64,000 nucleotides of DNA, taken from positions 50,333-114,332 of the IMG/VR virus record IMGVR_UViG_3300021513_000001; one strand, written 5' to 3'. The notes below the pieces were generated by a model. That model did not search any database. It was given only the letters and a program-made list of their open reading frames with translations, and had not been told where the DNA came from. The DNA comes from a virus. The position numbers were made by a program, and so were the translations under genes. Each line of letters opens with the position of its first letter. Within the stretch, counting starts at the first letter, position 1. Below, piece after piece: positions 45,001-55,728 of the stretch.

Positions 45001-48000
45001 ACCTAAATAAGCACTCGTACCAATAGTTGCTAAAGCACCACCATGTATGCCAGCAATTGCTTCAGTTACCGCTTTCAAAGAATCTGTAAGAGCTTTTAAC
45101 CCAGTTAAAATAGGCCCGCTAGCAGAAATAGCCAAAGCATTAAAAGAAGCCTTTAATTGAGCCGATTTCTTAGCTAAAGTCTCCATAACTAATTTATTTT
45201 CTTTTTCTGCCGACCCAACCGAATTAATACTAACAGCGCTAGCAGCCAAAGCTCTGTCATAATGCTCCATTAAAACCATAAGAGCATTATAATGTCGTAT
45301 ACCACCCATAGCTTGTGCTGTTGCTAATTTTTGAGCTCTAGTTAAACCAACCCATTTTTTAGCTAAATCATCTAAAACATCAGAACCTCTCCTAAGTCTT
45401 CCACCCTCAATAGTCTTAACACCAATAGCTGTTAATGCTTTTGGTGCTTTCTGTGTACCCATTCTTGAAAAAATAAATTTAAGAGATGTACCCACCTCCT
45501 TACCCGTTTGTCTTGTAGCTTCTCCAATTGCAGTAATAATACCATTAAGCTTATGAACACCTATACCCATTACCTTAGCAGCAGTACCAGCTTTTTTAAA
45601 ACCATCAGCTAAATCCTTTGCTGTTATAGCAAATTTATTTTCAACTTCATTCCAAGAATCAAGAATAGAAATAGACTTTTCACCTTCTATATTAAACTGT
45701 CTTGTAGCAGATGTTAATGCCTCAGCAGCCTCAGCCGGTTTCATTGTTGTAACATTTGCAGCAAGTGTAGAAACACGCGCCATCTCTTTTACTTGCTCTT
45801 GCGGAAGACCTTGCTGAGCAAATATACGCATAGTTTCAAACACACCTATTAACTCAGCACCATAGTCTTTAGCAAAACGAACAGCAGAATTTCGCATATT
45901 ATCAAAGTTAGTTGTAATAGGTGACATCACCTTCTTTAAATTGACCAAACCCGTTTCTGCTTGTTTCATTACTTCTATCATTTGTCTTGCGCCGCCTATA
46001 ATACCATATACCACTCCCGATGCAGCACCCCACAATGAAACCCTTCTAAGAACAGACCCTATTTGCCCCCCTCCTACTTCCTCCCTTTCAGATACCTTAG
46101 TTACTGGCCCAGCAAGACCAAAATACTTACCTCTAGCAGTAAGTCTTTTAGTTATAGCAACCTCTTCACCAGACTCTGTAAGAAGTTTACCTTTTATAAG
46201 CATAGACTTACCAATCTGATTAGCTCTTTTTAACTCCTCTTTTCCTTCTTCTATTCTTGAACGAAATGCAGCAAGTGAAGATTCCGGCGTCTCATAACCA
46301 CCCATTGTTATACCCTTGCGCGCAGCAATTGGAGTTTTAACTACTTTTTGATACATTCCCTGCGCTGCAAGCTGCGCCTGTTTATAAGCAGCACGTTCTT
46401 CTTCTGAAAGAATTACAGCACCGTTTTGTGCTTCTTTAAGCAACGCTATAATTTCTACTAAATCATTTTCAGCATTATCAAAATTTATAGCTTCTGTGTG
46501 TTTTCCAGCTTTTACCAAACCCACATCAAACTGCTTAACCCCAAGTAACATATCAGATATACGCTTATTAACGTCACCTGTTCCCTCCATAAACTTGCTA
46601 ACTAAAGTACTAGCGCGGGTTTTTTTATTTTTTTCTAATTCTCTTGCATATTCTTTAGCTGCTTTAGATTCTTGTTCTTCTATACCTGTAACAACACCAC
46701 CTTCACCAACAGCCTTAAGTTGTACCTGCCTTCTCTGCACAACCCCAGTAGTAAGAGGAACCGTAGCTGCAACTTTCATTGTTTTTCCAACAGCTAACGA
46801 AGCATCTTCCCACATAGCAGCTTTCTCTAATTCCACCTGTTTTCTAAATGCAGCTTCAGCTGATTCGGGAGTTTCCATACCCTTCATTATTATACCAGGC
46901 AATGCTTCTGGAGCTGTTTCTGCTACAGTACGAATAGCTGTTCCAATTTTTCTTTTTAATTGTGAAAATTCTACAAATTTTTCTGAACTAATACCTGGAG
47001 TTTTTATCATTTCGTTAAGAATCATCTGCATATCAGCTAAATCTTTAAGCGCTTCATCAAAATTAACAGTACCAGCAACATCATCAAATCTTTTTATACC
47101 AAGCCATACATCTTTTATTTTTTCATTTACATTTTTTGTTGAAGATTCGAATTCTTTTATAAGTCTAACAGCACGTCTACTTATTACTTCTTCCTTTTCT
47201 ACGGTAGGTTTCTCTTCTATTCTTTCAATTCCACCTACAACTCCTGGAGCATATAACCCCTCCTTTGCTCCTCTAGCAACAAGAGTAACTGTTCTCTTTT
47301 CAACCAGACCCTCTTCAGTAGGTATTTTAAAAGCAACTTTTCTTTTAGTCCCTACAACCAAACCCTTCTCTGCTAACATCTCTTTTTCATGCTTTTGTAA
47401 AAGAGCTTCAGCAGCAGCTTCTGCAGTTTCTCTGGTTTCTAATCCAGGTAAAACAAGAGTAGGCAATGCAGCGGCGTGGGTTTCTTGAACAGCCTTTTCC
47501 ATTTTAGTTACTTGCCTTACAGCATGTTCCAAATCAGAATACTCTTCCGGACTAAACATTCCATGAATTCTAAATGCTTTTAATTCTTCTTTAATTATTG
47601 CTAAATCTGCTTTCGCTTTTTCAAAATTAAAAGCTTTTCCACTTTTTGCTAACTCAGGATTAAATCTCCTTATTTCAGCCCACATAGTTTTTAAACGCTC
47701 TTCCATCCTTCCAGCCCCCATTAAAACAGGGGCTACAGCTTTTCCAGCGGTAGCACTTTGAACTTCTATAGCTTTTAATACTCTCTCCCTTTCATGTGGT
47801 ACACGATAAAGACCTAACTGCTCTACAGCTGCCTCATCTGCATACCCCAAAACCCTCCCACTTTCAGCCCTTTTCAAAAATGGAGTAGTTTTTTTACCAT
47901 AAGAACGAAGAATTACAGCTCCAGCCTTTCCTATAGCCTTTTCTCTTCCATAAATATCTCCAGCTTCTTCTGCCTGCTGAGCTATATCCGCTTCAGCCCT

Positions 48001-51000
48001 AGCTCTTTCTAAATGGTACTGAGCCCAAACAGTTTGTTGTTTAGGAAATGAAACACCCTTCATCGATGCTTTTAAAATTTCAGGAGCAACTAATGGAGAA
48101 ATCTCTTTAGCTCTCACAGCTTCAAGAACATTTAATGTTGGTTCTGGTAACCCTTCCTGAGTAAAACCAGTTCTCTTTTCAGCAGCAGCAATTAAATTCA
48201 TTAAAGCTTCTAATTTTGATTTATATTTAGGTTTTCCTCCCCCTGGTGGCACACCACCTGGAGGTATATTCCCTGGAGGTGCGCCCCCTGGCGGTACACC
48301 TGCTGGCGGTACACCTCCTAATGAAATACCAACTCTAGCAGCAAAATCAGCCAAACCTTCTTTTTCTAAAACTTTATAAGCTTTAACAGCCTTTTTCGCC
48401 TCAACCCCAAGTTCTGTTCCACCAGGTACAGCAGTCATCACAGACATGTTTTGTTTAATAAAAGTTAGAGCCTCTTGAATTTTTGCAATCTGTATATTTG
48501 TTAAACTTTTTGCCCCACCTAAAAGAAAATTTAAAGCTTCATTATACTCTTTTAACATATTAACTGCTTTTACAGCAGAAAGATCACCAAAAGCAGCATA
48601 ATCTATACCCTTAACACCGCCCTCTAATATTTCTCTTGCTCTATCTATTTTTGTTTCAGCTTTCTTTCCTGCGGTTAGTACTTCTATTTTCCCACGTTCT
48701 CTAACTAAAGCTTCCCGCTTCAATACAGTCTTTTCTGGTATATCTGGAACATCCTCTTCAGAAACATAACCATAACCTAATGGAAGCATTAACGGTCCTC
48801 TCGGAGGAATTTTCTTAGGCTTTTCTTTAACAAACAAACGAGCCTGCTCATACTTTGTCTTTACATCTGTTAATGGTTTCTCAGCAACTTTTAATGGCGG
48901 TGGCGCTGTCCCTATACTATATCCAGGAAACATAAATTGCTGTACATATTCTTCAGCTCTTTTTTTAGCCCTTCCTTTCTTTTTCTTAGTAAAAGCAGCA
49001 TATTCTTCTTCTTCAGCAACCTGTTTTTTATATTGTTCACCAACAATCGGAGAAATAGAAAACATCAAATCTTTTTTATACTCTGCCGACTTTACATATT
49101 GTTCAATCGCTTTTTTCCTATGTTGAAACAGGTATTCTTGTTGAAATTTTTCTATTTCTTCTTCTTTTGCTTTCGGGCGTTCTTTCTTAAATTTAGCAGC
49201 ACCCTCAGCCATAATCATTTCTTTTTCTTTCGTAGTAAGCCTTGGAACACCAAGCTTTTCTTCAAGAACGGCAACACCTCTACGTTTTTGTTTTGCAGTA
49301 GTCAAAGATTTAAATATTTTACCTAAATTAACACCAAATTTTTCCATTCTATTAAACATCGCAAACATATCCTTAAAAGCATCTTGCATCATAACATCTG
49401 ATACAGACACACCACTACCTGTTTGCTTGATAATTTCTAAAACTCTTATTATAGCTTTATCTAGGGTTGTTTTTCCTTTTTCTACTTGTTTGGCAAATTT
49501 TTCAACAGAGGCTGTAGAAGTTCTCAAAGAATAAAGAGGCTGCATTTGTGAAAAATATCTACCTAAATCTAATTCACCACTAGCAATTTGTTCCTCTATC
49601 ATAGCTTTTTGTTTTGGTGTCTTTGCAGTTTTTAAAACTTGATTTTGAATATCTTTAGCAGTAGCACTAAGAAAACCTTTAAAACTAAACTGATCAGCAT
49701 ACGCTTCTGTTATATCCTTACGTACCATCAATAGTTCTTTATCAGTTTTTCCCTTTGCTGTTTCAGGACTCATTCTCCGCACTTCTGATAAAAAATCTTC
49801 AGAATTTAAAGCATCTAACCTGTCTTTAATTGTAGTTTTTATTATTTCATTTGCTTTTAATATTCCCTTAAATCTTTCCGGTTCTTTCTGCATAGTAGCA
49901 AACAAAGTACCAGAAGCCATACCCTGCGTTACTTCCTGAAATATTGCCTTTCCACCGTGTTTTGCTGACATAGAGGCATTAATAACCTGTTCTAACAAAG
50001 CATTCATCATTGTTTGCATTTCACGAGCAGGTACAGCTTTTTGAACTAATTCGCCACCCTTTCCATACACAGCACCAAGAGCAACACTCTCAGGCTTCCA
50101 AGCAGCATACTCAGATTTAGTTACTTGTCTATCACCAAAACCTATGGAAGTTTCAATAATTCTCGCTAACCTGCTTATTGCTTCTGTTGATTCACCAAGG
50201 CCTGTTTTTACATACAGATTTTCATATTGCTTTGCACGAACTTTTTCATACAACATTTTTCTTGAAAAAGTCTCTATACCCTCTGCATCAACAATACCTT
50301 TTTTTTCAGCAATCTTAGATAAATGCCCTACAGTAATACCAAGATTCTTCAACCCCTCTAAAACATCAGGAGTAGTTAAATGTTTCATTTCTTCGGTTAT
50401 ATCGGGAGTTTTAAATATCTTAGCTCCAGGAATACCAGCCCTAGAAGTATACAAATCTGCAAGTTCTGCCATAGATCCTGTCAAACCAACTTCTTTATAA
50501 TTCATCATCTGATTAATAAAAGCTCTAGGATCTAAAGTACCAACTTTACCATATACACCTTTACGTGCAGCTTGATATTGAGCTTCTATTTCTTTTCTTG
50601 CTTTTTTTGTTTTAGCAGCATGAACATTAATTTCATCACCATCTAAATCTGCATTTTGAGCATAACCAGCAAACTTTACAGTAAGAAGATCTATAGCTTT
50701 AGACAACTCCATTATATTTTTAGTTAACTCGGCTCTTTGAGCATCTAATTCTTTTGCTTTTGCTGTACCCTTTTCTGCTATCGGTAATTCTGATCTTTCT
50801 TTTCTCAAAGATGCTTGTCTTAATTCAAGTTTTTCTTTGATTCTCTTCATCTCTTCAATATCAACACCAGGTGCTACACCACCAGGAATTGCAATAACAT
50901 CCCGCGCTCTTGGATGAACTAATTCCTTAGCAATACCAAATTGATGACTAGCAATACCAGTCATAGGAAATCTAGTAGTCATAACTGGAACATTTTGACC

Positions 51001-54000
51001 TTCTCTAACAGCATCTAAAAGAGTTTTCCCGGCCTTCCCATAATCACCAGTCAACTTTTCCATCTTTGCAGCAGGAATTCCTACCTCGCCCTCTCTTAAA
51101 ACAACAGCCCCGGCTTTTTTTTCTGCTTCTACTGCTTTCTCATGTTTTTCTGTTTGAGTTATAATCGAATTTACAAGAGTATTACCCAAAGATTTTGCCT
51201 TGTTTGGATCTCCTAAAACACCTTTTTCACTCAACCTATTTATTATTTCTGCTGCTTCTTTAAAATCTTCTACTTTACTGTTTATAGCTGCACTTAAAGT
51301 ACCACGTACAGCAGGCATAACTCTAGTTTGAAAAGATTCAACACCCTTTCCCTTACCTATAGTAGATTCAATTAAAGCTTTCTTTAATCTTTGCTTATCT
51401 CTCTCTATAAGCCTTATTTTCTCTTCTAAAGCTTGTTCTTTAACATCGGTAGTAACACCAAACTGTTTTGCAGCAACACCAAGAGCACCCTCACTAACAG
51501 AAAGTAATCCAGGCTTTTCAACACCAGCACTATATATATCTATACCGCGTTTTAACGCATTAGTAATCCACTCTCTAGCTTTCGGAGTCTCTTCCTCAAA
51601 ACCTTTCTCACCTATATCTGGTTTTTCTCTAGAACGTTTTTTATAATAAAAATAGGACTCAAGCTCAGTAAAAGGTTTGCCAGCCTTCATTCGTTCTAAA
51701 TCTCTTTCAAAACTTTCTATTTGTCCAACATCAATTTTAGGCTCCAACATATTATCTTTTACATTCATTAATAACCCAACAATACTTCTAGCTTCTTTCT
51801 TACCTAAACCTTTTCCAGCTTTAGATGCTTTTTCTAACAGAGATATTCCAGATCCAATCTTATTTAAAAGACTTCTAACAGGTGTCTTCATTGCTCCCAA
51901 ACCAACATCTCCAACAGCAGAAGCCTCTTTCAATATAATTTTTATTTTTTCAAAATAAGCTATCAGATTTTTTAAATCTTCATCCGAAACAGCAGAAGGT
52001 TGCTTAAAAGCTTTTGATACAACATTACGAAATACTGAAGAAGTCTCACCTATTTGGTCTTTAACATTTCTCCTTAAAACATCTACATTTGCTTTCTCGC
52101 CCTTTAAATATTTCGTCTTTTTTATCTTTTCATAATCTTCCACATTACTCAACAGACTATTATATAACACTGCTAACTTATTAGCACTAACTGCACCACC
52201 TTCTTCAGCATAAGCACCAAGACTTTTTCTAGACGGAATATATAATGGCCTTCTTCCTATTTCTTTTCCTTCTTCAAATTCTGGAACTTTAACAAAGCCA
52301 CCAGCTCCAAATTTCTCAATATCTAAAACAGTATCACGCAAATCTTTATATTTTGATATTACACCTGGTAATTCTCTAATACCTTTTGTAGATATGTATG
52401 GGGCTTTAGTCTTTACTGGTTCTTCTTCAAGAGTTTTCAAAGCAAATATGTTCTCTAAAGCAGCACCAGTATCCGGTTTATAACCGCCAAGTGTTTCTTG
52501 GACTACAGCAGATCCCTCACCAAATGTTGACATAAGAGCAGCCATAGCCGCTACGTTCAATTTTTGCCCTTTAATTCTTCTTTCTATTTGTTTTTGTGAC
52601 CACTCTTCATACCTAGAAGGCTCACGAGTATATCTCCAAAACTTCTGTCCTGCAATAACACCACCAGCACCTTTACCAGAATACATTGGTAAAGTTCTCT
52701 CTTCTATAGCAAATTTTTCTTCCGGCCCCCAACCATAACCCATGGCTTGTAAATATTTAGAAACCTCACCAGTTGAAGTAAGTTGTTCAGGTGTTAGTTT
52801 CGGAGCTATAGCACCTTTAACATTGCCTGCAATATTATTAATAACAACCTCCAAAGGTTCAGCTAAATTTAAACGTTTAGTTGCACCAGTAAGACTCATT
52901 CTTACTTCCGTCGCTATTTTTTCAGTCAGTGCTCCAGCACCAAGAATCTGCTTAGCTTTTTTTCTTCCCTTCTCTATAGACTCAGGAGTAGCAACTCTAA
53001 TATCAATATCTAAAATTTTCGAAACAGCATTTCTTATTTTTTCACATTTACTTTGAACCTCTTTTGATAAATCTTTATGCATAAATTCAACAAAAGGCAT
53101 TGTTCCAAGCTCATCCAAATCTGTAATAAGTTTATCTATCTCTTTATCTGTCTGTCTACTTACCCCTTTCTTTGTTTCAAGCATTTTTTGAATAAGTTTA
53201 TGATATGACGTAGCTTGCTCCACATAACCAAGCTCTCCTTCTTCTCCCTTCCCAAACTTCACTACACCCTTTGAACCATAGTGTGTCGTCATTTTGGTCC
53301 CTAAAGCAGTAAATAAGCGCTCAACAATTTTAACAGCAACTGCCTCTAAACTTTCCCCACCAGCACTGGTTAAAACTTTTGATATTTCACTAACCATCTC
53401 CCTTCCAGTCTCGCCTTCACCAACACCACCAATTCCAAAAGTTTTTCCAATATCTGGAGCATATTTTGATACTATATCTTTAGCTACAAGCTCTGCCCCC
53501 TCTACCCCACTTACATCTTTTATCATAGGTTTTATATATTTTGCAAACCTATTAACTGCTTTACCAGCTATTTCTATTTGATCTTCAAAAGTACCAGCAG
53601 AATCTTTTATAACTGTCTGCAAATTAAGACCATAGCCCCCTTCTCCCCACAAACCCTCTTTTTCTGCAGCACGCCCACGAATACTTTGCAAAAGAGGAGT
53701 TTCTAACTCACCAATCACCTTACCACCAAGAGCTTTACCTCCCCCTAATGCATGATATGTTGGTGCTAAAGTACGTGCAAAATTACTCCACTCGCCTAAA
53801 GGTATATACTCCCTAATATTACCAGCAAAAACATTCATTCTCATTCTAAAAGGATCTGTAACATCAGAAGCCAACTTAACTGATCTGCTTTCACCAACGC
53901 CTTGAGAACTTAAACGAAATTGTTTTCCAGATAACGCTAAATATTTTTCAATTTCCCTATTATGAGCAACCAACTGCTTGCGTTGTAGCTCTCCAGCTAC

Positions 54001-55728
54001 AATTTCACCACCAGCAGCTCCTGTCAATACAGGAACATTCAACTTTGAAGACTTGCCCTGATACCAAGAAAGCAGGGGTAAATCTTCTTCTACCAACTCC
54101 TGTTCAGTAAAAGGTTCTCTAACCCGCTTATTAAATGTCTTTACTGACTGTGTGCTTTCAGTTAAACCTTCACCTAAACTTTTAACAGTAGTTCTTAAAG
54201 GAGATGTTATACCAACAGATTCTTTAGTTAAAGTATCAAATAATCTATCATATATACTCGTTTTACTAAATTTACCCATAGCCACAAGAACATCATCAAA
54301 TCCTATTGCAGCTTTTTTAGCTTTATTTGCCAAATCATCTAAATATTTTAACTGCCCAACTTTGCTTTTTGGTATTTGCTGCGTTGGTTCTCTGCCATAC
54401 TTTGCAGACAATGTAGTTCTATAAGCATTTATTAATTCAAGTCTTCCTTTTTTATCTGTTTTCATTACATCCATAATACTAGATGCATGCTCAGCAAGAG
54501 CTGCTTTTTGATCTTCAACAATCATTTTTGGTAATTCAGGACTGATCTTTTGAACTTTTTGCGCAAGTGCTTTTTTACTCTCAATTTCTTTTCCACCAGT
54601 GCTTATTATATTTTCAGCCATCTTTTGAGCAACCATAATACCAGGAGTAAAACGATATTCTTGAGCTAAAGCCCTATACCTACCAGAAGGCATCTGCATA
54701 GCAGGCATACCTTGTGGTCCTTTTTGTGGACGTGGTATTTCTATTTCTTTAATTGCAGCTCCAATACGCTCATAAACACGAGAACGGCCCGCAGTCTCAC
54801 TTAATAAATCCATAAGACGTTCTTGAGAAACTGCTCCTCTTTTAGCGCCCTCTTCTCTTACAACTAAAGCTTTTCTTATCTGCTGTTCTGTTACACCTAA
54901 ACCTCTTGCTTGTTGTTTCTGTACTATCTGCTGTATACCCTTGTTTAGACCTTCATACCCGTGTTTGTTTATATATTCAGTAATCTTCGCTATTGATCGT
55001 TGTGTTCGTTCTGTTTTAGTTTTACCAAACTCACCAGAAAACTCCTCCATAGTAGCCCTACTAGCTTTAGTAACTAAAGCCTCTGCTCCTTTCTCTTTAG
55101 CCAGTTTAAGAGCCGCCTCCTCTGTAGTATTCGTTAACATTTTTAAGGCATTAACAAGAATACCAATATCAGCAATCTTTAAAACATCAACACCTCCACG
55201 TTTAGTATATTGTGCAGAACCCTTTCCAATAATCTGAAAAGATTCCCCATAAGCACTTACAAGTTGGGACTTTACTGTTTTTGCAAACTTAACCTTAAAT
55301 GATTCATAATCTTTCCTAATTTGATTCATCAAAACATCAGACGAATCAATAAGACTCTTTTTCTCTGCTACTTGTGTTACTGCAGGTATTATAGATCGTT
55401 CTTTTTTATACGGTAATACTTCTTTTGCTGGGGTTGTTACTATTCTTTTTTCTTTAGGTTGTTGTGTGATTACTTTAGATATCTCAGGACCAATATTTTT
55501 TACTGCTCCTGTTAATGCCCTATTTAAAGCTATCTCAAGTTCCTTTGCAATAGTAACTACCTGTTCTGAACTAGATGTTTTTAACTCACCTATTAAACGT
55601 GATATCTCAGCACTTTTCGATATTACTCCAGGGGATTCTATCTCTTTTGCTGCTTTAGTAGCAATTTCTCGTTCAGCAACATCAGTAATCTGCTTTATAT
55701 TTATAGAATATCTGTATTCTTCAGCCAC
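39037..55728 (-). CDS. Tape measure protein fused to an N-terminal two-barrel RNA polymerase (5,563 aa)
   Basis: Canonical tape measure position after tube and chaperones. TP901-type core at about aa 3218-3560 (AETGLVNLKKVM...FAQQG...LAANV...LTSATRQF...NKFAITAKDLADG...IGEATRQTGKEVGTSLKFIFSRM). Helical E/K/A-rich. Colinear RNAP motifs at about aa 714-1925. GTG start with AGGTG upstream. Confidence 0.9.
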   Translation of the reverse strand: MAEEYRYSINIKQITDVAEREIATKAAKEIESPGVISKSAEISRLIGELKTSSSEQVVTIAKELEIALNRALTGAVKNIGPEISKVITQQPKEKRIVTTPAKEVLPYKKERSIIPAVTQVAEKKSLIDSSDVLMNQIRKDYESFKVKFAKTVKSQLVSAYGESFQIIGKGSAQYTKRGGVDVLKIADIGILVNALKMLTNTTEEAALKLAKEKGAEALVTKASRATMEEFSGEFGKTKTERTQRSIAKITEYINKHGYEGLNKGIQQIVQKQQARGLGVTEQQIRKALVVREEGAKRGAVSQERLMDLLSETAGRSRVYERIGAAIKEIEIPRPQKGPQGMPAMQMPSGRYRALAQEYRFTPGIMVAQKMAENIISTGGKEIESKKALAQKVQKISPELPKMIVEDQKAALAEHASSIMDVMKTDKKGRLELINAYRTTLSAKYGREPTQQIPKSKVGQLKYLDDLANKAKKAAIGFDDVLVAMGKFSKTSIYDRLFDTLTKESVGITSPLRTTVKSLGEGLTESTQSVKTFNKRVREPFTEQELVEEDLPLLSWYQGKSSKLNVPVLTGAAGGEIVAGELQRKQLVAHNREIEKYLALSGKQFRLSSQGVGESRSVKLASDVTDPFRMRMNVFAGNIREYIPLGEWSNFARTLAPTYHALGGGKALGGKVIGELETPLLQSIRGRAAEKEGLWGEGGYGLNLQTVIKDSAGTFEDQIEIAGKAVNRFAKYIKPMIKDVSGVEGAELVAKDIVSKYAPDIGKTFGIGGVGEGETGREMVSEISKVLTSAGGESLEAVAVKIVERLFTALGTKMTTHYGSKGVVKFGKGEEGELGYVEQATSYHKLIQKMLETKKGVSRQTDKEIDKLITDLDELGTMPFVEFMHKDLSKEVQSKCEKIRNAVSKILDIDIRVATPESIEKGRKKAKQILGAGALTEKIATEVRMSLTGATKRLNLAEPLEVVINNIAGNVKGAIAPKLTPEQLTSTGEVSKYLQAMGYGWGPEEKFAIEERTLPMYSGKGAGGVIAGQKFWRYTREPSRYEEWSQKQIERRIKGQKLNVAAMAALMSTFGEGSAVVQETLGGYKPDTGAALENIFALKTLEEEPVKTKAPYISTKGIRELPGVISKYKDLRDTVLDIEKFGAGGFVKVPEFEEGKEIGRRPLYIPSRKSLGAYAEEGGAVSANKLAVLYNSLLSNVEDYEKIKKTKYLKGEKANVDVLRRNVKDQIGETSSVFRNVVSKAFKQPSAVSDEDLKNLIAYFEKIKIILKEASAVGDVGLGAMKTPVRSLLNKIGSGISLLEKASKAGKGLGKKEARSIVGLLMNVKDNMLEPKIDVGQIESFERDLERMKAGKPFTELESYFYYKKRSREKPDIGEKGFEEETPKAREWITNALKRGIDIYSAGVEKPGLLSVSEGALGVAAKQFGVTTDVKEQALEEKIRLIERDKQRLKKALIESTIGKGKGVESFQTRVMPAVRGTLSAAINSKVEDFKEAAEIINRLSEKGVLGDPNKAKSLGNTLVNSIITQTEKHEKAVEAEKKAGAVVLREGEVGIPAAKMEKLTGDYGKAGKTLLDAVREGQNVPVMTTRFPMTGIASHQFGIAKELVHPRARDVIAIPGGVAPGVDIEEMKRIKEKLELRQASLRKERSELPIAEKGTAKAKELDAQRAELTKNIMELSKAIDLLTVKFAGYAQNADLDGDEINVHAAKTKKARKEIEAQYQAARKGVYGKVGTLDPRAFINQMMNYKEVGLTGSMAELADLYTSRAGIPGAKIFKTPDITEEMKHLTTPDVLEGLKNLGITVGHLSKIAEKKGIVDAEGIETFSRKMLYEKVRAKQYENLYVKTGLGESTEAISRLARIIETSIGFGDRQVTKSEYAAWKPESVALGAVYGKGGELVQKAVPAREMQTMMNALLEQVINASMSAKHGGKAIFQEVTQGMASGTLFATMQKEPERFKGILKANEIIKTTIKDRLDALNSEDFLSEVRRMSPETAKGKTDKELLMVRKDITEAYADQFSFKGFLSATAKDIQNQVLKTAKTPKQKAMIEEQIASGELDLGRYFSQMQPLYSLRTSTASVEKFAKQVEKGKTTLDKAIIRVLEIIKQTGSGVSVSDVMMQDAFKDMFAMFNRMEKFGVNLGKIFKSLTTAKQKRRGVAVLEEKLGVPRLTTKEKEMIMAEGAAKFKKERPKAKEEEIEKFQQEYLFQHRKKAIEQYVKSAEYKKDLMFSISPIVGEQYKKQVAEEEEYAAFTKKKKGRAKKRAEEYVQQFMFPGYSIGTAPPPLKVAEKPLTDVKTKYEQARLFVKEKPKKIPPRGPLMLPLGYGYVSEEDVPDIPEKTVLKREALVRERGKIEVLTAGKKAETKIDRAREILEGGVKGIDYAAFGDLSAVKAVNMLKEYNEALNFLLGGAKSLTNIQIAKIQEALTFIKQNMSVMTAVPGGTELGVEAKKAVKAYKVLEKEGLADFAARVGISLGGVPPAGVPPGGAPPGNIPPGGVPPGGGKPKYKSKLEALMNLIAAAEKRTGFTQEGLPEPTLNVLEAVRAKEISPLVAPEILKASMKGVSFPKQQTVWAQYHLERARAEADIAQQAEEAGDIYGREKAIGKAGAVILRSYGKKTTPFLKRAESGRVLGYADEAAVEQLGLYRVPHERERVLKAIEVQSATAGKAVAPVLMGAGRMEERLKTMWAEIRRFNPELAKSGKAFNFEKAKADLAIIKEELKAFRIHGMFSPEEYSDLEHAVRQVTKMEKAVQETHAAALPTLVLPGLETRETAEAAAEALLQKHEKEMLAEKGLVVGTKRKVAFKIPTEEGLVEKRTVTLVARGAKEGLYAPGVVGGIERIEEKPTVEKEEVISRRAVRLIKEFESSTKNVNEKIKDVWLGIKRFDDVAGTVNFDEALKDLADMQMILNEMIKTPGISSEKFVEFSQLKRKIGTAIRTVAETAPEALPGIIMKGMETPESAEAAFRKQVELEKAAMWEDASLAVGKTMKVAATVPLTTGVVQRRQVQLKAVGEGGVVTGIEEQESKAAKEYARELEKNKKTRASTLVSKFMEGTGDVNKRISDMLLGVKQFDVGLVKAGKHTEAINFDNAENDLVEIIALLKEAQNGAVILSEEERAAYKQAQLAAQGMYQKVVKTPIAARKGITMGGYETPESSLAAFRSRIEEGKEELKRANQIGKSMLIKGKLLTESGEEVAITKRLTARGKYFGLAGPVTKVSEREEVGGGQIGSVLRRVSLWGAASGVVYGIIGGARQMIEVMKQAETGLVNLKKVMSPITTNFDNMRNSAVRFAKDYGAELIGVFETMRIFAQQGLPQEQVKEMARVSTLAANVTTMKPAEAAEALTSATRQFNIEGEKSISILDSWNEVENKFAITAKDLADGFKKAGTAAKVMGIGVHKLNGIITAIGEATRQTGKEVGTSLKFIFSRMGTQKAPKALTAIGVKTIEGGRLRRGSDVLDDLAKKWVGLTRAQKLATAQAMGGIRHYNALMVLMEHYDRALAASAVSINSVGSAEKENKLVMETLAKKSAQLKASFNALAISASGPILTGLKALTDSLKAVTEAIAGIHGGALATIGTSAYLGATALGKYFDLSMFGLLGPSIGGAKRKRRTPRELVGALFGGKQEKGREVFEKVRQMSPKALLPKVGTRVSGIGRGLVSGASFAFSGAMIEKSVKSMSSLVKATGKASLSVLGLVTSLGALGTFISVIASLGVGMYLFNKAVTKTFASAEDRTKDYKKALDVVEEKIKSISNVKMIRSRVEIRGGRIKALEELTEEQIASQVKGRSYKSPLLMKKEQIESIREYATAVVSLTSEGFIGFDKFGKSIVSSTDKLDSVIAKLEEIAANARINLKLHIEKEELDDLMKAVKIKGFWKKLQYMFREGIGNLGEMTGFKSLEKYADKRRTLFERMIRSSEKINKMRYEAGQKGEIIRAPLTRLKEINPEEYSRQEDRFKRWSALQKEHLNIMTEFNDKFLEIKRDFFTMAGPGMTPELAGKAAFGATGRALAELEQQKNKQFYKGISVEDIQASFAQRLSGVNIRASAELTKQAAMEQGIPFRGVSTEEERRNVLEEAIAKDVFMFKKGSGYLGDMVSVFEKGVGDASEKWVKYSVEVSKNQEKGLKFVTDTLENFKKTAVISDKFIGVINAVGMLTDVEVRLRKISRYFVGAEAGMYKPIKEGKLELGSMYRYQIKTPILIQNNAYKVFSKETMGFINEYVKRQEEVRKAQKAALAVNEKHGDVAEETSKNISELINSLTGLSNVAIQDARVIMNLKKALEQIDVTYEKQELVQKFRTRTMKRLTGPLAGMELIPTPKINMRKMSELPIAERAFIIPEYAKKAKEYNVKELEYMKYVKRGEKIVTAEVDLKYIKDLSKQKGFDKKEFAAVSENILKTGELSTAVLLTETQKQTKLEQKTANTLGDIKTILESNKPTGLTALSQAMKETGEINRDIAVRGASLKVKADIGRFISNRDIKGTKEYLAALKETLGEKEGNKLFIRAVTELGSSIPGIGDLVTAAQQSSKYKELSPNDVSAIYEQATSKEALTLVKSTKKSPAEVQESLKNSESLIDFTKVLLPSIMIPSPAGLVTAVATAKNLPYNPTSTLTPEQEKIAGKEVSTMGFGVGIKNNEKIVRTFIDLLENRFEGLQEEKRQQKESKIETGVITNKIATPEKVMEEVLEKIGISANKNKEKIENLNDELINSGKSLENIINSFTLFTKVTDPLIKSVENLSFTFKNLDMQSAKSQKLIESRAKRLNVKGGPLYREALPIGVDVSTTARYSPHEILYNRDQEYRENTISYLKQLEKVKAVRSKTDIMAGIMGQVDFLKQQGISNERLNSMIEGALETGSVELGPVISVLNEIAKNTAKTAEGVERTSGKRSEFDVKSEEAVDKTTPGLEKLQKLYSQYQAKALVEEDKARKEAEKLRIPNIRQQTRMDIAAGRGKSLDQITREENELRATLGRVPSEIKERNRKLLEVYEAEKEARATFELEKRKILEPLQQSVSGMKSIIDSIKTGLSGIESARNIRPLEIDFSKWAKRQGTSELSQERVADRRMQFDLAKNLYSQNLSLRAQGVDTGIDPKELYNIMERASRGEDITKYGGSFGTFIGRGGPLEAIQKNLSVAVEAKEKRIRDVQAEEYATAIRGAISPSNDRLDSIKNNIGKLIISGENVGASIIDAINRSENVKSQPIIVDKRDKVGASYERPLLTEGQKKYKSFFETTGITVRYPGQEFSQEENRRQIKESLEKKGMFVTYPEQEKNVTFLPSVLEAGKEIATKRDKIKEFAVKPKAQLDSQKNIEVKQSDEILKKNKKLNIEVSNLKDEIEVLKESVIDVNKLFVDLSDNLKNVNSVGEASKSSKDLIDDLGESASKTAISLDTLSTKINTIDVAKEESGPTAAAEKEVVEYISEEEALNLINNVKEELSESIDQLSNDSKTVAELVEKTRILSEDVEIIKNTVPVETEEIESTDFIAFKEEIVSCSETIKELKGLVEDLDTDVANNTASVLVMESGFELINKKLDDHDSALVQLQTNLGTMGAKFTNAINELREEVAEAKDLAWSARVFASQT
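46090..47710 (-). repeat. Three diverged internal protein repeats (about 175 aa each) in the tape measure polyprotein
   Basis: IRRF...FNFEKAKADL...GLETRETAEAA / IKRF...VNFDEALKDL...GMETPESAEAAF / VKQF...INFDNAENDL...GYETPESSLAAF. Confidence 0.8.
48235..48318 (-). repeat. Pro/Gly pentapeptide tandem repeat (about 5 x 15 nt), flexible linker
   Basis: GGVPP-AGVPP-GGAPP-GNIPP-GGVPP-GGG, a local GC-rich patch. Confidence 0.85.
49900..53650 (-). other. Two-barrel (double-psi beta-barrel) RNA polymerase core inside the tape measure ORF
   Basis: FED (aa 714-716), GTKMTTHYGSKGVV (810-823), KRLNLAEPLE (R952), GQKL (1054), GGAVSANKLAVLYNSLL, GKGKG...RVMPAVR (1469-1475), TTRFP (R1586), NADLDGDEINVH (1692-1703; nt 50620-50655). 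Confidence 0.85.

What the first reader, a model, noticed from the sequence alone, without database searches (positions are those of the whole stretch)
49900..53650. Compact single-chain beta-beta' polymerase with mixed ancestry
Seen: the beta barrel motifs through the beta' catalytic loop span only about 1,000 aa (714-1703). The junction near aa 1070-1150 has no Cys, so there is no beta' zinc-binding domain. A coiled-coil insertion (about aa 1620-1685) lies just before NADLDGD. After the catalytic loop, EQVINASMSAKHGG (K1923) resembles the helix-K(H/T)G motif of single-chain YonO and eukaryotic RdRP-type enzymes rather than a canonical bridge helix or trigger loop. The His equivalent to beta H1237 is not evident. 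Inference: a distinct RNAP lineage with clamp and switch elements like cellular RNAP but a YonO/RdRP-like C-terminus.
Basis: partly seen in the sequence, partly recalled or inferred. Interest (0 to 1): 0.75.

Follow-up and report, generated by a model that had tools for sequence, protein, structure and literature searches.

The report
RNA polymerase built into tape measure
The flagged stretch is the catalytic core of a cell-type RNA polymerase that forms the front third of a phage's 5,563-residue tail tape measure protein, so the phage probably injects its own transcription enzyme, a strategy proven so far only in the unrelated Thermus phage P23-45.

Summary
They lie in one 5,563-aa ORF (window 39037-55728, minus strand) on a 114-kb viral contig that CheckV rates 54% complete.

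- **Architecture:** residues ~560-2170 carry beta-like motifs (TFEDQI, GTKMTTHYGSKG). After these come a Cys-free, beta'-like clamp region, a second barrel with NADLDGD, a bridge-helix-like 48-residue helix, and a trigger-loop-like M-x-x-K-H-x-G motif. Residues 3220-3760 are a tape measure domain (PF10145, E 2.6e-28; phrog_4211, E 1e-91).
- **Family:** more than 100 giant metagenomic homologues (mostly 6.5-8 thousand aa, 0-4 Cys) keep the same order and the same catalytic residues.
- **Structure:** predicted structures align best and longest with the largest subunits of multisubunit polymerases, colinearly from beta' residue ~23 to ~1341.
- **Not supported:** YonO has no K(H/T)G motif, and profile comparison with YonO found nothing.
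- **Precedent:** a tape-measure-fused virion polymerase is published for P23-45 gp96 (Chaban 2024). This family shows no detectable sequence homology to gp96 and, unlike gp96, has a predicted clamp.
- **Second polymerase:** near-complete relatives also encode a standalone ~1,100-aa paralogue with normal Cys content, which suggests a two-polymerase scheme.

This scan has already reported such fusions on other DNA. Activity and delivery through the tail are inferred, not shown.

The parts
39037..55728 (-). Whole gene: 5,563-aa fusion of an RNA polymerase module and a tape measure protein (GTG start; AGGTG lies 9-13 nt upstream)
   Evidence: Single open frame under table 11. The N-terminus is conserved in homologues. 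Upstream sequence.
53194..54051 (-). Beta-like region, aa 560-845. It holds a conserved upstream block (ELETP...), then the first barrel's motifs, with a ~95-aa helical insert where cellular beta has the flap.
   Evidence: The A4 profile against the standalone phage polymerase (whose family carries Pfam Rpb2_6 hits) gives hhalign probability 95.7%, E 8.8e-9, 215 columns. Pfam hits. The barrel fold itself was not predicted with confidence.
53575..53592 (-). TFEDQI, aa 713-718. Counterpart of beta N-F-E-D-S-I (E. coli 812-817).
   Evidence: Invariant in A1; F, E, D and Q invariant or nearly invariant in A4. E. coli sequence.
53263..53301 (-). G-T-K-M-T-T-H-Y-G-S-K-G-V, aa 810-822. K812 and K820 correspond to beta K1065 and K1073.
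   Evidence: hhalign places it on E. coli beta 1062-1076 as the single best local match (47% identity over 15 residues, low probability). G818, K820 and G821 are invariant.
52429..53193 (-). Connector, aa 846-1100. Possibly the counterpart of the beta C-terminal region; conserved R943, S945, K951, R952, E960, N965.
   Evidence: Invariant columns in A2. The motif likeness to beta region I is tentative.
51109..52428 (-). Beta'-like N-terminal / clamp-like region, aa 1101-1540, with no Cys and therefore no zinc sites
50620..51108 (-). Second (beta'-type) double-psi barrel, aa 1541-1703, including R1586-x-P
50683..50859 (-). Helical hairpin (coiled coil) inserted in the barrel just before the catalytic loop, aa 1624-1682
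   Evidence: Two helices in both models. Appears as a gap in the alignment to the standalone paralogue. Absent from E. coli beta' 415-465.
50635..50655 (-). Catalytic metal loop N-A-D-L-D-G-D, aa 1692-1698 (D1694, D1696, D1698)
   Evidence: D-x-DGD is invariant in 57 sequences. Pfam Rpb1_2 gives E 7.6e-5, 23.5 bits, just under the cut-off, and 25 of 57 members hit it. hhalign to beta' 455-481 shows 44% identity.
50143..50286 (-). Bridge-helix candidate, a 48-residue helix at aa 1815-1862 (family motif F-K-x-H-T-G..T-E)
   Evidence: Helix in model 2. Structural alignments end at model 1151-1158 (aa 1847-1854) against E. coli beta' 798-805. Archaeal A' 2pmz_A: model 44-360 against chain 331-828.
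49951..50031 (-). Trigger-loop-like helix and tip, aa 1900-1926, ending in M1920-S-A-K1923-H1924-G-G
   Evidence: Column counts out of 57: N57, E55, R55, Q55, K54, G56, M49, D55, K57, H52, G57. Same Q..M...H.G spacing as E. coli beta' 929-938. Lies inside the beta'-colinear alignments.
49513..49539 (-). Conserved Q-P-L-Y-S-L-R-T-S, aa 2064-2072, near the C-terminal end of the polymerase module
   Evidence: P, L, Y and R are nearly invariant. Structural alignments reach model 562-591 against beta' ~1341 and Rpb1 ~1425.
48235..48318 (-). Pro/Gly-rich linker, aa 2471-2498
   Evidence: Direct reading and regex.
46039..47757 (-). Three diverged tandem ~190-aa repeats, aa 2658-3230
   Evidence: Pairwise local scores are 15-25 SD above shuffles.
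44449..46071 (-). Tape measure domain, aa 3220-3760, with a strongly hydrophobic segment at aa 3681-3712 (window 44593-44688)
   Evidence: PF10145 E 2.6e-28; phrog_4211 E 1.2e-91 plus ten other TMP PHROGs. Hydropathy.
39037..44448 (-). C-terminal ~1,800 aa, helix/coiled-coil-rich remainder of the tape measure
   Evidence: Translation. No Pfam or PHROG family. Conserved in the closer homologues.

Best explanation
Window 49900-53650 encodes the catalytic core of a single-chain, cellular-type (beta fused to beta') two-barrel DNA-dependent RNA polymerase. The core is not a separate gene. It forms residues ~560-2170 of a 5,563-aa tail tape measure protein.

Proposed mechanism:
1. The protein is built into the tail lumen as the length ruler.
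2. At infection it leaves through the tail ahead of, or together with, the DNA.
3. The tape measure part inserts in the envelope through its hydrophobic segment (aa 3681-3712).
4. The N-terminal polymerase folds or re-folds on the cytoplasmic side and transcribes the first-entering phage genes without host polymerase.

Catalysis would be two-metal chemistry. D1694, D1696 and D1698 of the beta'-type barrel hold the metals. K812, H816 and K820 of the beta-type barrel contact the RNA 3' end and the NTP. A bridge helix (aa ~1815-1862) and a trigger-loop-like element (M1920, K1923, H1924) close on the substrate.

The near-total lack of Cys, and hence of both beta' zinc sites, is read as an adaptation to transit through the tail and envelope in a non-native state.

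The complete phage probably also has a standalone ~1,100-aa paralogue that acts as a non-virion polymerase for later genes. Relatives have one; it may lie on the missing half of this genome.

Shown here: the gene architecture, motif conservation, predicted fold similarity, the family and the paralogue.

Inferred: enzymatic activity, packaging, ejection, promoter use and the division of labour between the two polymerases.
For: - **One ORF with both functions:** polymerase motifs lie upstream and a strong tape measure domain downstream.
- **Order is conserved:** in 69 of 69 giant homologues the DxDGD loop lies 1,016-1,880 aa N-terminal of the tape measure domain.
- **Family size:** a profile search of 1.84 billion representative proteins gave 111 hits at E<=1e-3 (84 at E<=1e-30). 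Nearly all are 6.5-8 thousand aa or fragments, and no standalone form of this module appeared. There are 40 IMG/VR loci and 80 metagenome loci, on contigs up to 285 kb.
- **Catalytic residues are invariant** at ~25% overall identity.
- **Beta-like half:** it is homologous (hhalign 95.7%) to the beta-like half of a standalone phage polymerase family that carries Pfam Rpb2_6 and Rpb1_2 hits. The second barrel matches that family at 73%.
- **Co-occurrence:** the standalone polymerase sits on the same contig as the fused one in two nearly complete relatives, G001 (268 kb) and G002 (228 kb). It also sits on the contigs of L065 and L112; that link rests on matching contig lengths.
- **Cys depletion follows the fusion, not the lineage:** 2 Cys in 5,563 aa against 2.03% elsewhere on the contig; a median of 0 Cys in the giant homologues; 1.45-1.66% in the standalone paralogues; 0 of 5,002 in P23-45 gp96.
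- **Precedent for the mechanism:** P23-45 gp96 is present in virions as the full-length fusion, is active in vitro, and occupies pre-early genes 5 min after infection (PMC10770324).
Against: - No enzymatic, virion or expression data exist for this uncultivated phage.
- The first (beta-type) barrel was not folded confidently by AlphaFold: pLDDT is 27-52 at the key motifs. Its identity rests on motifs and on homology to the standalone paralogue.
- Pfam hits stay at or below the gathering threshold.
- A ~1,600-aa polymerase with a clamp is hard to fit, folded, into a tail tube. P23-45 gp96 is flat and clampless, which its authors link to passage through the tail.
- No second polymerase and no promoter set were found on this 54%-complete contig.
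- The neighbouring genes could not be assigned to tail functions.
Confidence: 0.72

Rival explanations
1. One reading: a chimeric lineage with a cellular-type clamp and switch region, but a C-terminus of the YonO / QDE-1 / RdRP type, in which SAKHG is the helix-K(H/T)G motif rather than a bridge helix or trigger loop.
For: - K1923 is invariant (57 of 57).
- In the structure-based alignment of Chaban 2024 (Supplementary Fig. 9), single-subunit enzymes carry a conserved Lys or Arg in the N-terminal arm of the trigger loop: QDE-1 V-D-Q-S-K-G, gp66 V-D-N-A-K-Q, gp96 T-D-R-K-R-D.
- YonO has I-D-F-A-K-T downstream of its catalytic loop.
Against: - YonO has no K[HT]G.
- Family profiles against YonO give probability 0.2%, not even at the metal loop.
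- The QDE-1 match has rmsd 7.5 A.
- For the C-terminal model, the top-50 rows of both VIA lists hold no single-subunit polymerase. Their polymerase rows are all cellular-type or viral multisubunit largest subunits, colinear through the bridge helix to region H.
- The motif has the Met, His and Gly of the canonical trigger loop in the canonical spacing.
Confidence: 0.1
2. It is simply a divergent member of the already described P23-45 gp96/gp64 clade. On this view a single ancient tape-measure-polymerase fusion was inherited by both groups.
For: - Same unusual architecture: polymerase at the N-terminus of a giant, Cys-free tape measure protein.
- Same pairing with a standalone paralogue.
Against: - hhalign of the family profiles against gp96 aa 1-1300 gives probability 4% and 0.5%, aligned only at DFDGD.
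- phmmer of gp96 against all collected family members finds nothing.
- tblastn of the module against 50,697 phage records, which include P23-45, finds nothing.
- Only 121 residues align structurally with gp96, against 260-280 with beta'/Rpb1.
- gp96 has a ~70-residue disordered connector and no clamp. Here ~870 aa separate the first barrel's GxKG motif from the catalytic loop, and a beta'-like clamp region is predicted between the barrels.
- The barrel motifs here (FED, K-M-x-x-H-x-G-x-K-G) are of the cellular type and are absent from gp96 and gp64.
Confidence: 0.12
3. The module is active, but its main job is mechanical. As with T7 polymerase-driven genome entry, transcription by a polymerase anchored to the tape measure pulls the long genome into the cell. 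Gene expression would be secondary.
For: - The polymerase is covalently tethered to a membrane-inserting tape measure part.
- Family members sit on 200-285-kb genomes.
- Almost all genes of the contig are co-oriented.
Against: There is no direct evidence. This reading is not exclusive of the main explanation. The genome end that enters first is unknown, and the contig is incomplete.
Confidence: 0.15
4. The polymerase-like region is an inactive relic that now serves only as extra ruler or plug length in the tape measure.
For: - The zinc sites, the flap and much of the beta N-terminal half are missing.
- AlphaFold is unsure about the first barrel.
- A protein language model sees the region as tape-measure-like.
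Against: The three Asp, the barrel Lys residues, R-x-P, and the trigger-loop-like Lys and Gly (His in 52 of 57) are conserved across more than 50 lineages that share only ~25% identity. That is hard to explain without catalysis. The analogous gp96 is active.
Confidence: 0.05

Closest known systems
Thermus phage P23-45 gp96 (also P74-26, G20c, TSP4): tape-measure-fused virion RNA polymerase (Chaban et al. 2024, Nat Commun 15:317; PDB 8H2M, 8H2N)
   Same: - A two-barrel polymerase at the N-terminus of a ~5,000-aa tape measure protein with hydrophobic segments.
- A DxDGD loop.
- No Cys at all (0 of 5,002).
- A phage that also has a standalone paralogous polymerase.
- It is the only experimentally supported model for how such a fusion works.
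   Different: - No detectable sequence or profile homology.
- gp96 is ~800 aa, flat and clampless. This module is ~1,600 aa with a beta'-like clamp region, cellular-type FED and KMxxHxGxKG motifs, a helical hairpin inserted in the catalytic barrel, and an M..KH.G trigger-loop motif where gp96 has T-D-R-K-R-D.
- No metallopeptidase domain was found here.
- Different virus group: environmental contigs of jumbo size rather than Oshimavirus.
Cellular multisubunit RNA polymerase, beta and beta' (RpoB/RpoC; Rpb2/Rpb1)
   Same: - Order and spacing of the catalytic motifs: beta FED, beta K1065..K1073, beta' R-x-P, NADFDGD..H..AR.
- Bridge helix and trigger-loop Q..M...H.G.
- Predicted structure colinear with beta' residues ~23-1341.
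   Different: - A single chain.
- Most of the beta N-terminal lobes and the flap (SBHM) insert are missing.
- No zinc-binding Cys.
- A ~60-aa hairpin inserted before the metal loop.
- Only ~40 aa between bridge helix and trigger loop.
- Pfam models are matched only at or below threshold.
- Fused to a virion protein.
Standalone ~1,100-aa single-chain beta-beta' polymerase of the same phage group (for example L129:3212-6520, P0120; at least 235 clusters, all annotated 'hypothetical protein')
   Same: - The beta-like half is homologous: hhalign 95.7%, E 8.8e-9, 215 columns.
- The second barrel matches at 73%.
- Shared K-x-H-T-G and K-H-G motifs.
- Encoded in the same genomes.
   Different: - Half the size: ~520 aa between FEDQ and DFDGD.
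- Near-canonical H-G-N-K-G-V-I and G-Q-I-L-E motifs.
- Normal Cys content.
- No hairpin insertion.
- Not fused to a structural protein.
- Not found on this incomplete contig.
Single-subunit two-barrel polymerases: SPbeta YonO, Neurospora QDE-1, crAss-like phi14:2 gp66
   Same: - One chain with the beta-type barrel before the beta'-type barrel.
- gp66 is also virion-delivered.
- A conserved basic residue in the N-terminal arm of the trigger loop.
   Different: - No profile similarity to YonO.
- None of these chains appears among the listed matches of the C-terminal model.
- They lack the FED and KMxxRHGNKG-type motifs and the trigger-loop His.
phiKZ / AR9 jumbo-phage multisubunit polymerases
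   Same: - Phage-encoded, cellular-type and zinc-poor, with virion and non-virion sets.
   Different: Those enzymes are split into 4-5 subunits and packaged in the head. This one is fused into a single chain and joined to the tape measure.

Membership tests
Two-barrel (double-psi beta-barrel) RNA polymerase superfamily | Beta'-type barrel carrying a DxDxD metal-binding loop | tested here: met
Two-barrel (double-psi beta-barrel) RNA polymerase superfamily | Second (beta-type) barrel contributing conserved Lys/Arg to the active site, N-terminal of the first | tested here: inconclusive
   The motifs are present and conserved (TFEDQI; GTKMTTHYGSKG). The region is homologous to the Rpb2_6-positive half of the standalone paralogue. 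AlphaFold did not predict a confident barrel there.
Two-barrel (double-psi beta-barrel) RNA polymerase superfamily | Bridge helix and trigger-loop N-terminal arm after the catalytic barrel | tested here: met
   The 48-residue helix at aa 1815-1862 ends where beta' 798-805 ends in the alignments. A helix plus M..KH.G follows 40-60 aa later, inside beta'-colinear alignments. The match is at the level of ranges and motifs, not residue-level superposition.
Two-barrel (double-psi beta-barrel) RNA polymerase superfamily | Template-dependent RNA synthesis | not testable with these tools
   This needs biochemistry.
Tape-measure-fused virion RNA polymerase (P23-45 gp96 type) | Polymerase module and tape measure domain in one polypeptide, with the polymerase N-terminal | tested here: met
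   PF10145 E 2.6e-28 and phrog_4211 E 1.2e-91 at aa 3220-3760 of the same ORF. The order is the same in 69 of 69 homologues.
Tape-measure-fused virion RNA polymerase (P23-45 gp96 type) | Sequence or profile homology to gp96 | tested here: not met
   hhalign probability 4% and 0.5%. phmmer and tblastn find nothing.
Tape-measure-fused virion RNA polymerase (P23-45 gp96 type) | Flat, clampless architecture with a short connector between the barrels | tested here: not met
   About 870 aa lie between the GxKG motif and the DxDGD loop. aa 1101-1540 align with the beta'/Rpb1 N-terminal clamp region. Only 121 residues align with 8h2m_A.
Tape-measure-fused virion RNA polymerase (P23-45 gp96 type) | Present in virions as the full-length fusion and active early in infection | not testable with these tools
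   The phage is uncultivated, so no proteomic or expression data can be obtained here.
Tape-measure-fused virion RNA polymerase (P23-45 gp96 type) | Partner standalone (non-virion) paralogous polymerase in the same genome | tested here: inconclusive
   Found in relatives G001 and G002 and on two further contigs. Not found on this contig, which is only 54% complete.
Cellular-type multisubunit RNA polymerase beta/beta' | Pfam Rpb1/Rpb2 domain models matched above the gathering threshold | tested here: not met
   Rpb1_2 scores 21.4-23.5 bits against a cut-off of 25.3, and there is no Rpb2 hit on this protein. The whole-genome six-frame scan gives 24.5 bits, or 26.2 when neighbouring pieces in the frame are added.
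Cellular-type multisubunit RNA polymerase beta/beta' | Beta' zinc-binding elements (Cys4 sites) | tested here: not met
   There is no Cys between aa 896 and 5474.
Cellular-type multisubunit RNA polymerase beta/beta' | Flap / SBHM insertion inside the beta barrel | tested here: not met
   Only ~95 aa, predicted helical, lie between FEDQ and GxKG. E. coli beta has ~250 aa there.
Cellular-type multisubunit RNA polymerase beta/beta' | Trigger loop with the Met and His that contact the incoming NTP | tested here: inconclusive
   The motif and its spacing match: M1920, H1924, G1926 against beta' M932, H936, G938. No residue-level structural alignment was available.
YonO / QDE-1 / crAss gp66 single-subunit clade | Profile or structural similarity greater than to multisubunit enzymes | tested here: inconclusive
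   No K[HT]G occurs anywhere in the 839-aa SPbeta YonO.

The most novel reading that the evidence does not exclude
This is a separate, old lineage of single-chain beta-beta' RNA polymerase, kept as a pair in a widespread group of environmental jumbo phages: a ~1,100-aa standalone enzyme and a ~1,600-aa tape-measure-fused enzyme. On this reading it became fused to the tape measure independently of the Thermus-phage case. The fused copy was rebuilt for passage through the tail: all Cys and zinc sites were purged, the flap was replaced by helices, and a hairpin was inserted in the catalytic barrel. [quoted passage not shown]
Probability: 0.3. Interest if true: 0.75.

Novelty: new variant of a known kind. 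Interest (0 to 1): 0.55.

Why it matters
- **Generality.** If active, this family would show that injecting a polymerase as part of the tail ruler is a recurrent solution among large environmental phages, not a curiosity of one Thermus phage genus. Here it would use a different, cell-type enzyme that keeps a clamp.
- **A folding question.** How does a ~180-kDa polymerase travel through, or fold after, a ~4-nm tail channel? The specific removal of every cysteine and zinc site is a testable clue.
- **A natural comparison.** The standalone paralogue lets one ask which features are needed for delivery and which for catalysis.
- **Annotation.** No Pfam or PHROG model recognises the module, and the database names seen for homologues of either polymerase were only 'hypothetical protein'.
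- **Evolution.** The compact single-chain beta-beta' cores are useful material for reconstructing polymerase evolution.

Tried and rejected
- **Sequence searches, nothing found:** tblastn of the module against 50,697 phage records. phmmer and profile hmmsearch against PDB sequences gave only E~1 hits to the beta'/Rpb1 metal loop and to coiled coils.
- **Foldseek, nothing significant:** both models against PDB, and model 2 against BFVD, gave no hit at E<=1e-3.
- **Complex prediction:** the beta-like part (A4) with the beta'-like core (A3, residues 41-576) returned no verdict (score 0.00; the partner's own fold was uncertain). It counts neither for nor against.
- **ESM Atlas:** features for aa 560-1100 returned only tape-measure-like clusters, with low recognition.
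- **The look-up of encoding contigs:** Sub-ranges of protein ids are not accepted by align_proteins. Homologue fragments were therefore taken from loci.
- **Single-sequence pattern scan of IMG/VR:** no relatives. The alignment-based scan worked.
- **A second DFDGD on the contig** (818-aa ORF, genome 15105-17561) is an intein- and LAGLIDADG-bearing glycosyltransferase, not a polymerase.
- **A PF04998 match** (12.9 bits) in the C-terminal coiled-coil part of the giant ORF was judged spurious.
- **T7-like polymerase family PF00940:** no match in this genome or three relatives, but the control genomes did not ring either, so this says nothing.
- **Neighbouring genes:** Pfam and PHROG scans of 20 neighbours gave no tail annotations except a LAGLIDADG endonuclease and one weak 'tail protein' hit. 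The siphovirus-or-myovirus question stays open.
- **hhalign with E. coli subunits:** the standalone-family profile against E. coli beta' gave only a spurious match. Family profiles against E. coli beta and beta' align the correct catalytic motifs, but with low probability because the template is a single sequence.
- **AlphaFold on aa 697-1896:** the first ~140 residues were not modelled well. In alignment A2 the query's N-terminus had slipped into gap columns, which probably contributed.
- **BLAST self-comparison:** it did not detect the internal repeats; a shuffle test did.

Full report
**1. What is at the coordinates**

The finding (window 49900-53650) lies inside one minus-strand ORF, window 39037-55728, of 5,563 codons. 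The window is the right-hand 64 kb of a single 114,332-bp IMG/VR virus record. That record is linear and CheckV rates it 54% complete. It has about 30% G+C, and nearly all its genes are on the minus strand.

- TFEDQI at aa 713-718
- HYGSKG at 816-821
- RFPMTG at 1586-1591
- NADLDGD at 1692-1698
- SAKHGG at 1921-1926

The protein has only two Cys, at 895 and 5475.

**2. The context that this finding's text left out**

The same ORF contains a strong tape measure domain at aa 3220-3760. Pfam PF10145 scores E 2.6e-28 and phrog_4211 scores E 1.2e-91, with ten further TMP PHROGs. A very hydrophobic segment lies at aa 3681-3712. The polymerase-like stretch is therefore the N-terminal third of a tape measure protein.

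A literature search found the precedent: Chaban et al. 2024, Nat Commun 15:317 (PMC10770324). In Thermus phage P23-45, residues 327-1124 of the 5,002-aa tape measure protein gp96 are an active two-barrel polymerase. That enzyme:
- is present in virions as the full-length fusion;
- occupies pre-early genes 5 min after infection;
- is flat and clampless in the crystal;
- is paired with a standalone non-virion paralogue, gp64.

**3. Is it a real, conserved thing?**

Yes.
- The word-indexed protein search found eight further giant relatives of 3,698-7,608 aa, plus the window's own record. All but the shortest carry PF10145.
- No standalone form in the 700-2,200-aa range turned up, only one fragment.
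- An alignment-driven scan found 40 loci in IMG/VR, 80 loci in JGI metagenomes (83 confirmed relatives), and 2 in MAGs. Contigs reach 285 kb.
- A profile of aa 1500-2200, run against 1.84 billion representative proteins, gave 111 hits at E<=1e-3 and 84 at E<=1e-30. Almost all are 6.5-8 thousand aa or short fragments, and none is a cellular polymerase.
- In 69 of 69 proteins of at least 3,000 aa that show both features, the DxDGD loop lies 1,016-1,880 aa N-terminal of the tape measure domain.
- With 21-29% identity to the query (one sequence at about 58%), the 57-sequence alignments keep these residues invariant or nearly so: F-E-D-Q, G-x-K-G, R-x-P, D-x-DGD, the following His and Arg, a K..G..E block in the long helix, N-E..R and Q-K-G-M-D-V-K-H-A-G, and P-L-Y..R.

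The window's protein belongs to a divergent sub-branch. That branch includes P0003-P0006 (50-63% identity) and has a shorter N-terminal extension.

**4. What kind of polymerase?**

*Sequence.* Sequence methods see only the active-site loops.
- Pfam Rpb1_2 sits just under its threshold: 21-24 bits against 25.3. It is hit by 25 of 57 members.
- Profile searches of PDB sequences give only E~1 matches to the NADFDGD loop of beta', Rpb1 and RPC1.
- hhalign against E. coli subunits places the family's 'FGRKFTTRYGSKGVS' on beta 1062-1076 and 'QKLDFDGDQIEIHSAKT..AR' on beta' 455-481. These are the right motifs, but the probability is low.

*Structure.* Two AlphaFold2 models were made with 57-row alignments.
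- Model 1, aa 697-1896: pLDDT 73, pTM 0.46.
- Model 2, aa 1500-2200: pLDDT 78, pTM 0.68.
- Foldseek found nothing significant.

|---|---|---|---|---|---|
| 1 | Pol I 7ob9_A | 11.8 | 260 | 408-1032 | 19-625 |
| 1 | bacterial beta' 8jo2_D | 11.4 | 261 | 405-1037 | 24-498 |
| 1 | E. coli beta' 9gda_D | 10.4 | 280 | 405-1158 | 23-805 |
| 1 | archaeal clamp construct 3qqc_A | 8.9 | 143 | 385-772 | not noted |
| 2 | Pol I 7ob9_A | 10.3 | 265 | 44-562 | 450-1663 |
| 2 | Rpb1 9mu7_A | 9.3 | 239 | 44-568 | 364-1425 |
| 2 | archaeal A' 2pmz_A | 9.6 | 166 | 44-360 | 331-828 |
| 2 | Thermus beta' 6asg_D | 8.3 | 258 | 43-591 | 635-1455 |
| 2 | E. coli beta' 8acp_D | 8.0 | 272 | 42-587 | 358-1341 |

By contrast:
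- None of these appears in the top-50 rows of either list for the C-terminal model.

**5. Resulting anatomy (window protein numbering)**

- aa ~560-845: beta-like block with the first barrel's motifs. K812, H816 and K820 correspond to beta K1065, R1069 and K1073. About 95 helical residues stand where beta has the flap.
- aa 846-1100: a conserved connector, tentatively like the beta C-terminal region.
- aa ~1101-1540: beta'-like N-terminal, clamp-like region without any Cys.
- aa 1541-1703: the catalytic barrel, with a two-helix hairpin (aa 1624-1682) inserted just before NADLDGD. The hairpin is a gap in the alignment with the standalone paralogue and is absent from E. coli beta'.
- aa 1815-1862: a 48-residue helix that ends where beta' 798-805 ends, so it is the bridge-helix candidate.
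- aa 1900-1926: a helix plus M1920-S-A-K1923-H1924-G-G.
- aa 2064-2072: conserved Q-P-L-Y-S-L-R-T-S, near the end of the beta'-colinear part.
- After the module: a Pro/Gly linker (aa 2471-2498), three diverged ~190-aa repeats (aa 2658-3230), the tape measure domain, and ~1,800 helix-rich residues.

**6. The SAKHG question**

The family consensus I-Q-K-G-M-D-V-K-H-A-G has the same Q..M...H.G spacing as the E. coli trigger loop T-Q-L-T-M-R-T-F-H-I-G-G (beta' 928-939). It also lies at the expected place downstream of the bridge helix, inside beta'-colinear alignments.

I therefore read it as a canonical-type trigger-loop arm. M1920, H1924 and G1926 would correspond to beta' M932, H936 and G938.

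SPbeta YonO has no K[HT]G, and profile comparison gives probability 0.2%.

A weaker version of the idea survives. In the structure-based alignment of Chaban 2024 (Supplementary Fig. 9), the single-subunit enzymes carry a conserved Lys or Arg one position before the place of the multisubunit His. This family has both, as K-H. That mapping rests on printed alignments and motif spacing, not on a superposition I could compute.

**7. A paralogue, and a link to beta**

Two nearly complete relatives, G001 (268 kb) and G002 (228 kb), each have one fused module. Each also has a standalone ORF of 1,102 or 1,085 aa with Pfam Rpb2_6 (aa ~300-470) followed by Rpb1_2 (aa ~720-830). No such ORF was found in a third relative, G003 (234 kb).
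- This standalone family has at least 235 clusters. Where a source gives any name it is 'hypothetical protein', and many carry precomputed PF00562 and PF00623 hits.
- It occurs on the same contigs as the fused genes L065 and L112; this link rests on matching contig lengths.
- Its consensus has near-canonical beta motifs: F-E-D-Q-I, H-G-N-K-G-V-I and G-Q-I-L-E-A.
- hhalign of the fused family's beta-like profile (A4) against it gives 95.7% probability, E 8.8e-9, over 215 columns. The catalytic barrel matches at 73%.

This is the best evidence that the first barrel is real and of the beta type. It also shows a two-polymerase arrangement parallel to gp96/gp64. On this contig the protein search hits only the giant ORF itself, at aa 698-827. 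The missing 46% of the genome may hold the paralogue.

**8. The cysteine purge**

| Protein set | Cys content |
|---|---|
| Other ORFs of the contig, including five 1,600-3,300-aa proteins | 2.03% |
| The fusion protein | 2 of 5,563 (113 expected; Poisson P about 5e-46) |
| Giant homologues | median 0, maximum 4 |
| Standalone paralogues | 1.45-1.66% |
| P23-45 gp96 | 0 of 5,002 |

The loss of both beta' zinc sites therefore goes with the tape-measure fusion rather than with the polymerase lineage. I infer selection against Cys in a protein that must travel through the tail and envelope unfolded or metastable. That is an inference.

**9. Relation to gp96**

All sequence-level tests against gp96 were negative. 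The architecture also differs: a clamp-like region, ~870 aa between the GxKG motif and the catalytic loop, cellular-type motifs, and no peptidase domain.

I conclude that it works like gp96 but is not a detectable member of that family. A very deep common origin cannot be excluded with these tools.

**10. Verdict**

- It is wrong on the YonO/RdRP-like C-terminus.
- It leaves out the tape-measure fusion and its 2024 precedent.

The kind of system is known, and this is a new variant of it: a large, unannotated environmental family.

My tests agree with them.

Activity, packaging, ejection and promoter specificity remain untested.

Noticed in passing
L129:3212-6520 (-) and L130:1335-4592 (+), in relatives G001 and G002: A large family (at least 235 clusters) of ~1,100-aa single-chain beta-beta' polymerases. 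Where a source gives a name it is only 'hypothetical protein'. They have near-canonical HGNKGVI, GQILEA and LDFDGD motifs and occur on jumbo-size contigs together with the tape-measure-fused polymerase. They are candidate non-virion polymerases.
   Followed up: partly
window 46039-47757 (-), aa 2658-3230 of the giant ORF: Three diverged tandem repeats of ~190 aa between the polymerase module and the tape measure domain. Local alignment scores are 15-25 SD above shuffles, yet BLAST does not see them.
   Followed up: partly
window 48235-48318 (-), aa 2471-2498: A Pro/Gly-rich low-complexity linker (GGVPPAGVPPGG...PPGGVPPGGG) about 300 aa after the polymerase module. It could be a hinge or a processing site.
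   Followed up: no
whole contig (G000:C1), for example window 3166-13128 and 13135-20223: The other giant proteins of this phage (1,529-3,320 aa) are Cys-rich (1.5-2.8%), in sharp contrast to the Cys-free tape measure fusion.
   Followed up: partly
L123:15105-17561 (-) (genome coordinates, left of the window): An 818-aa glycosyltransferase interrupted by an intein with a LAGLIDADG endonuclease. Its DFDGD is unrelated to polymerases.
   Followed up: partly
window 59535-60374 (-): A 279-aa ORF with a LAGLIDADG homing-endonuclease match (phrog_11023, E 5.7e-16), upstream of the tape measure gene.
   Followed up: no
proteins P0091, P0098, P0100, P0105, P0109-P0111, P0117: A more distant sister group of 4.1-5.3 thousand-aa Cys-free giant proteins, with DFDGD near aa 1400 and, in most, KHGG only ~145 aa later. 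Their post-catalytic part is more compact, and they also show tape-measure-domain similarity.
   Followed up: partly
protein P0008 (7,379 aa): One giant homologue carries a precomputed RNase_T exonuclease domain (PF00929) in addition to the polymerase and tape measure parts. Its position in the protein was not determined. Most of the family has an N-terminal extension of 1,000-1,570 aa; in this window it is about 700 aa.
   Followed up: no
L122 (Candidatus Woesearchaeota MAG contig) and L121 (Gammaproteobacteria MAG contig): The only two hits in 185,579 species genomes are short contigs binned into an archaeal MAG and a bacterial MAG. The host range of the family is therefore unresolved.
   Followed up: no
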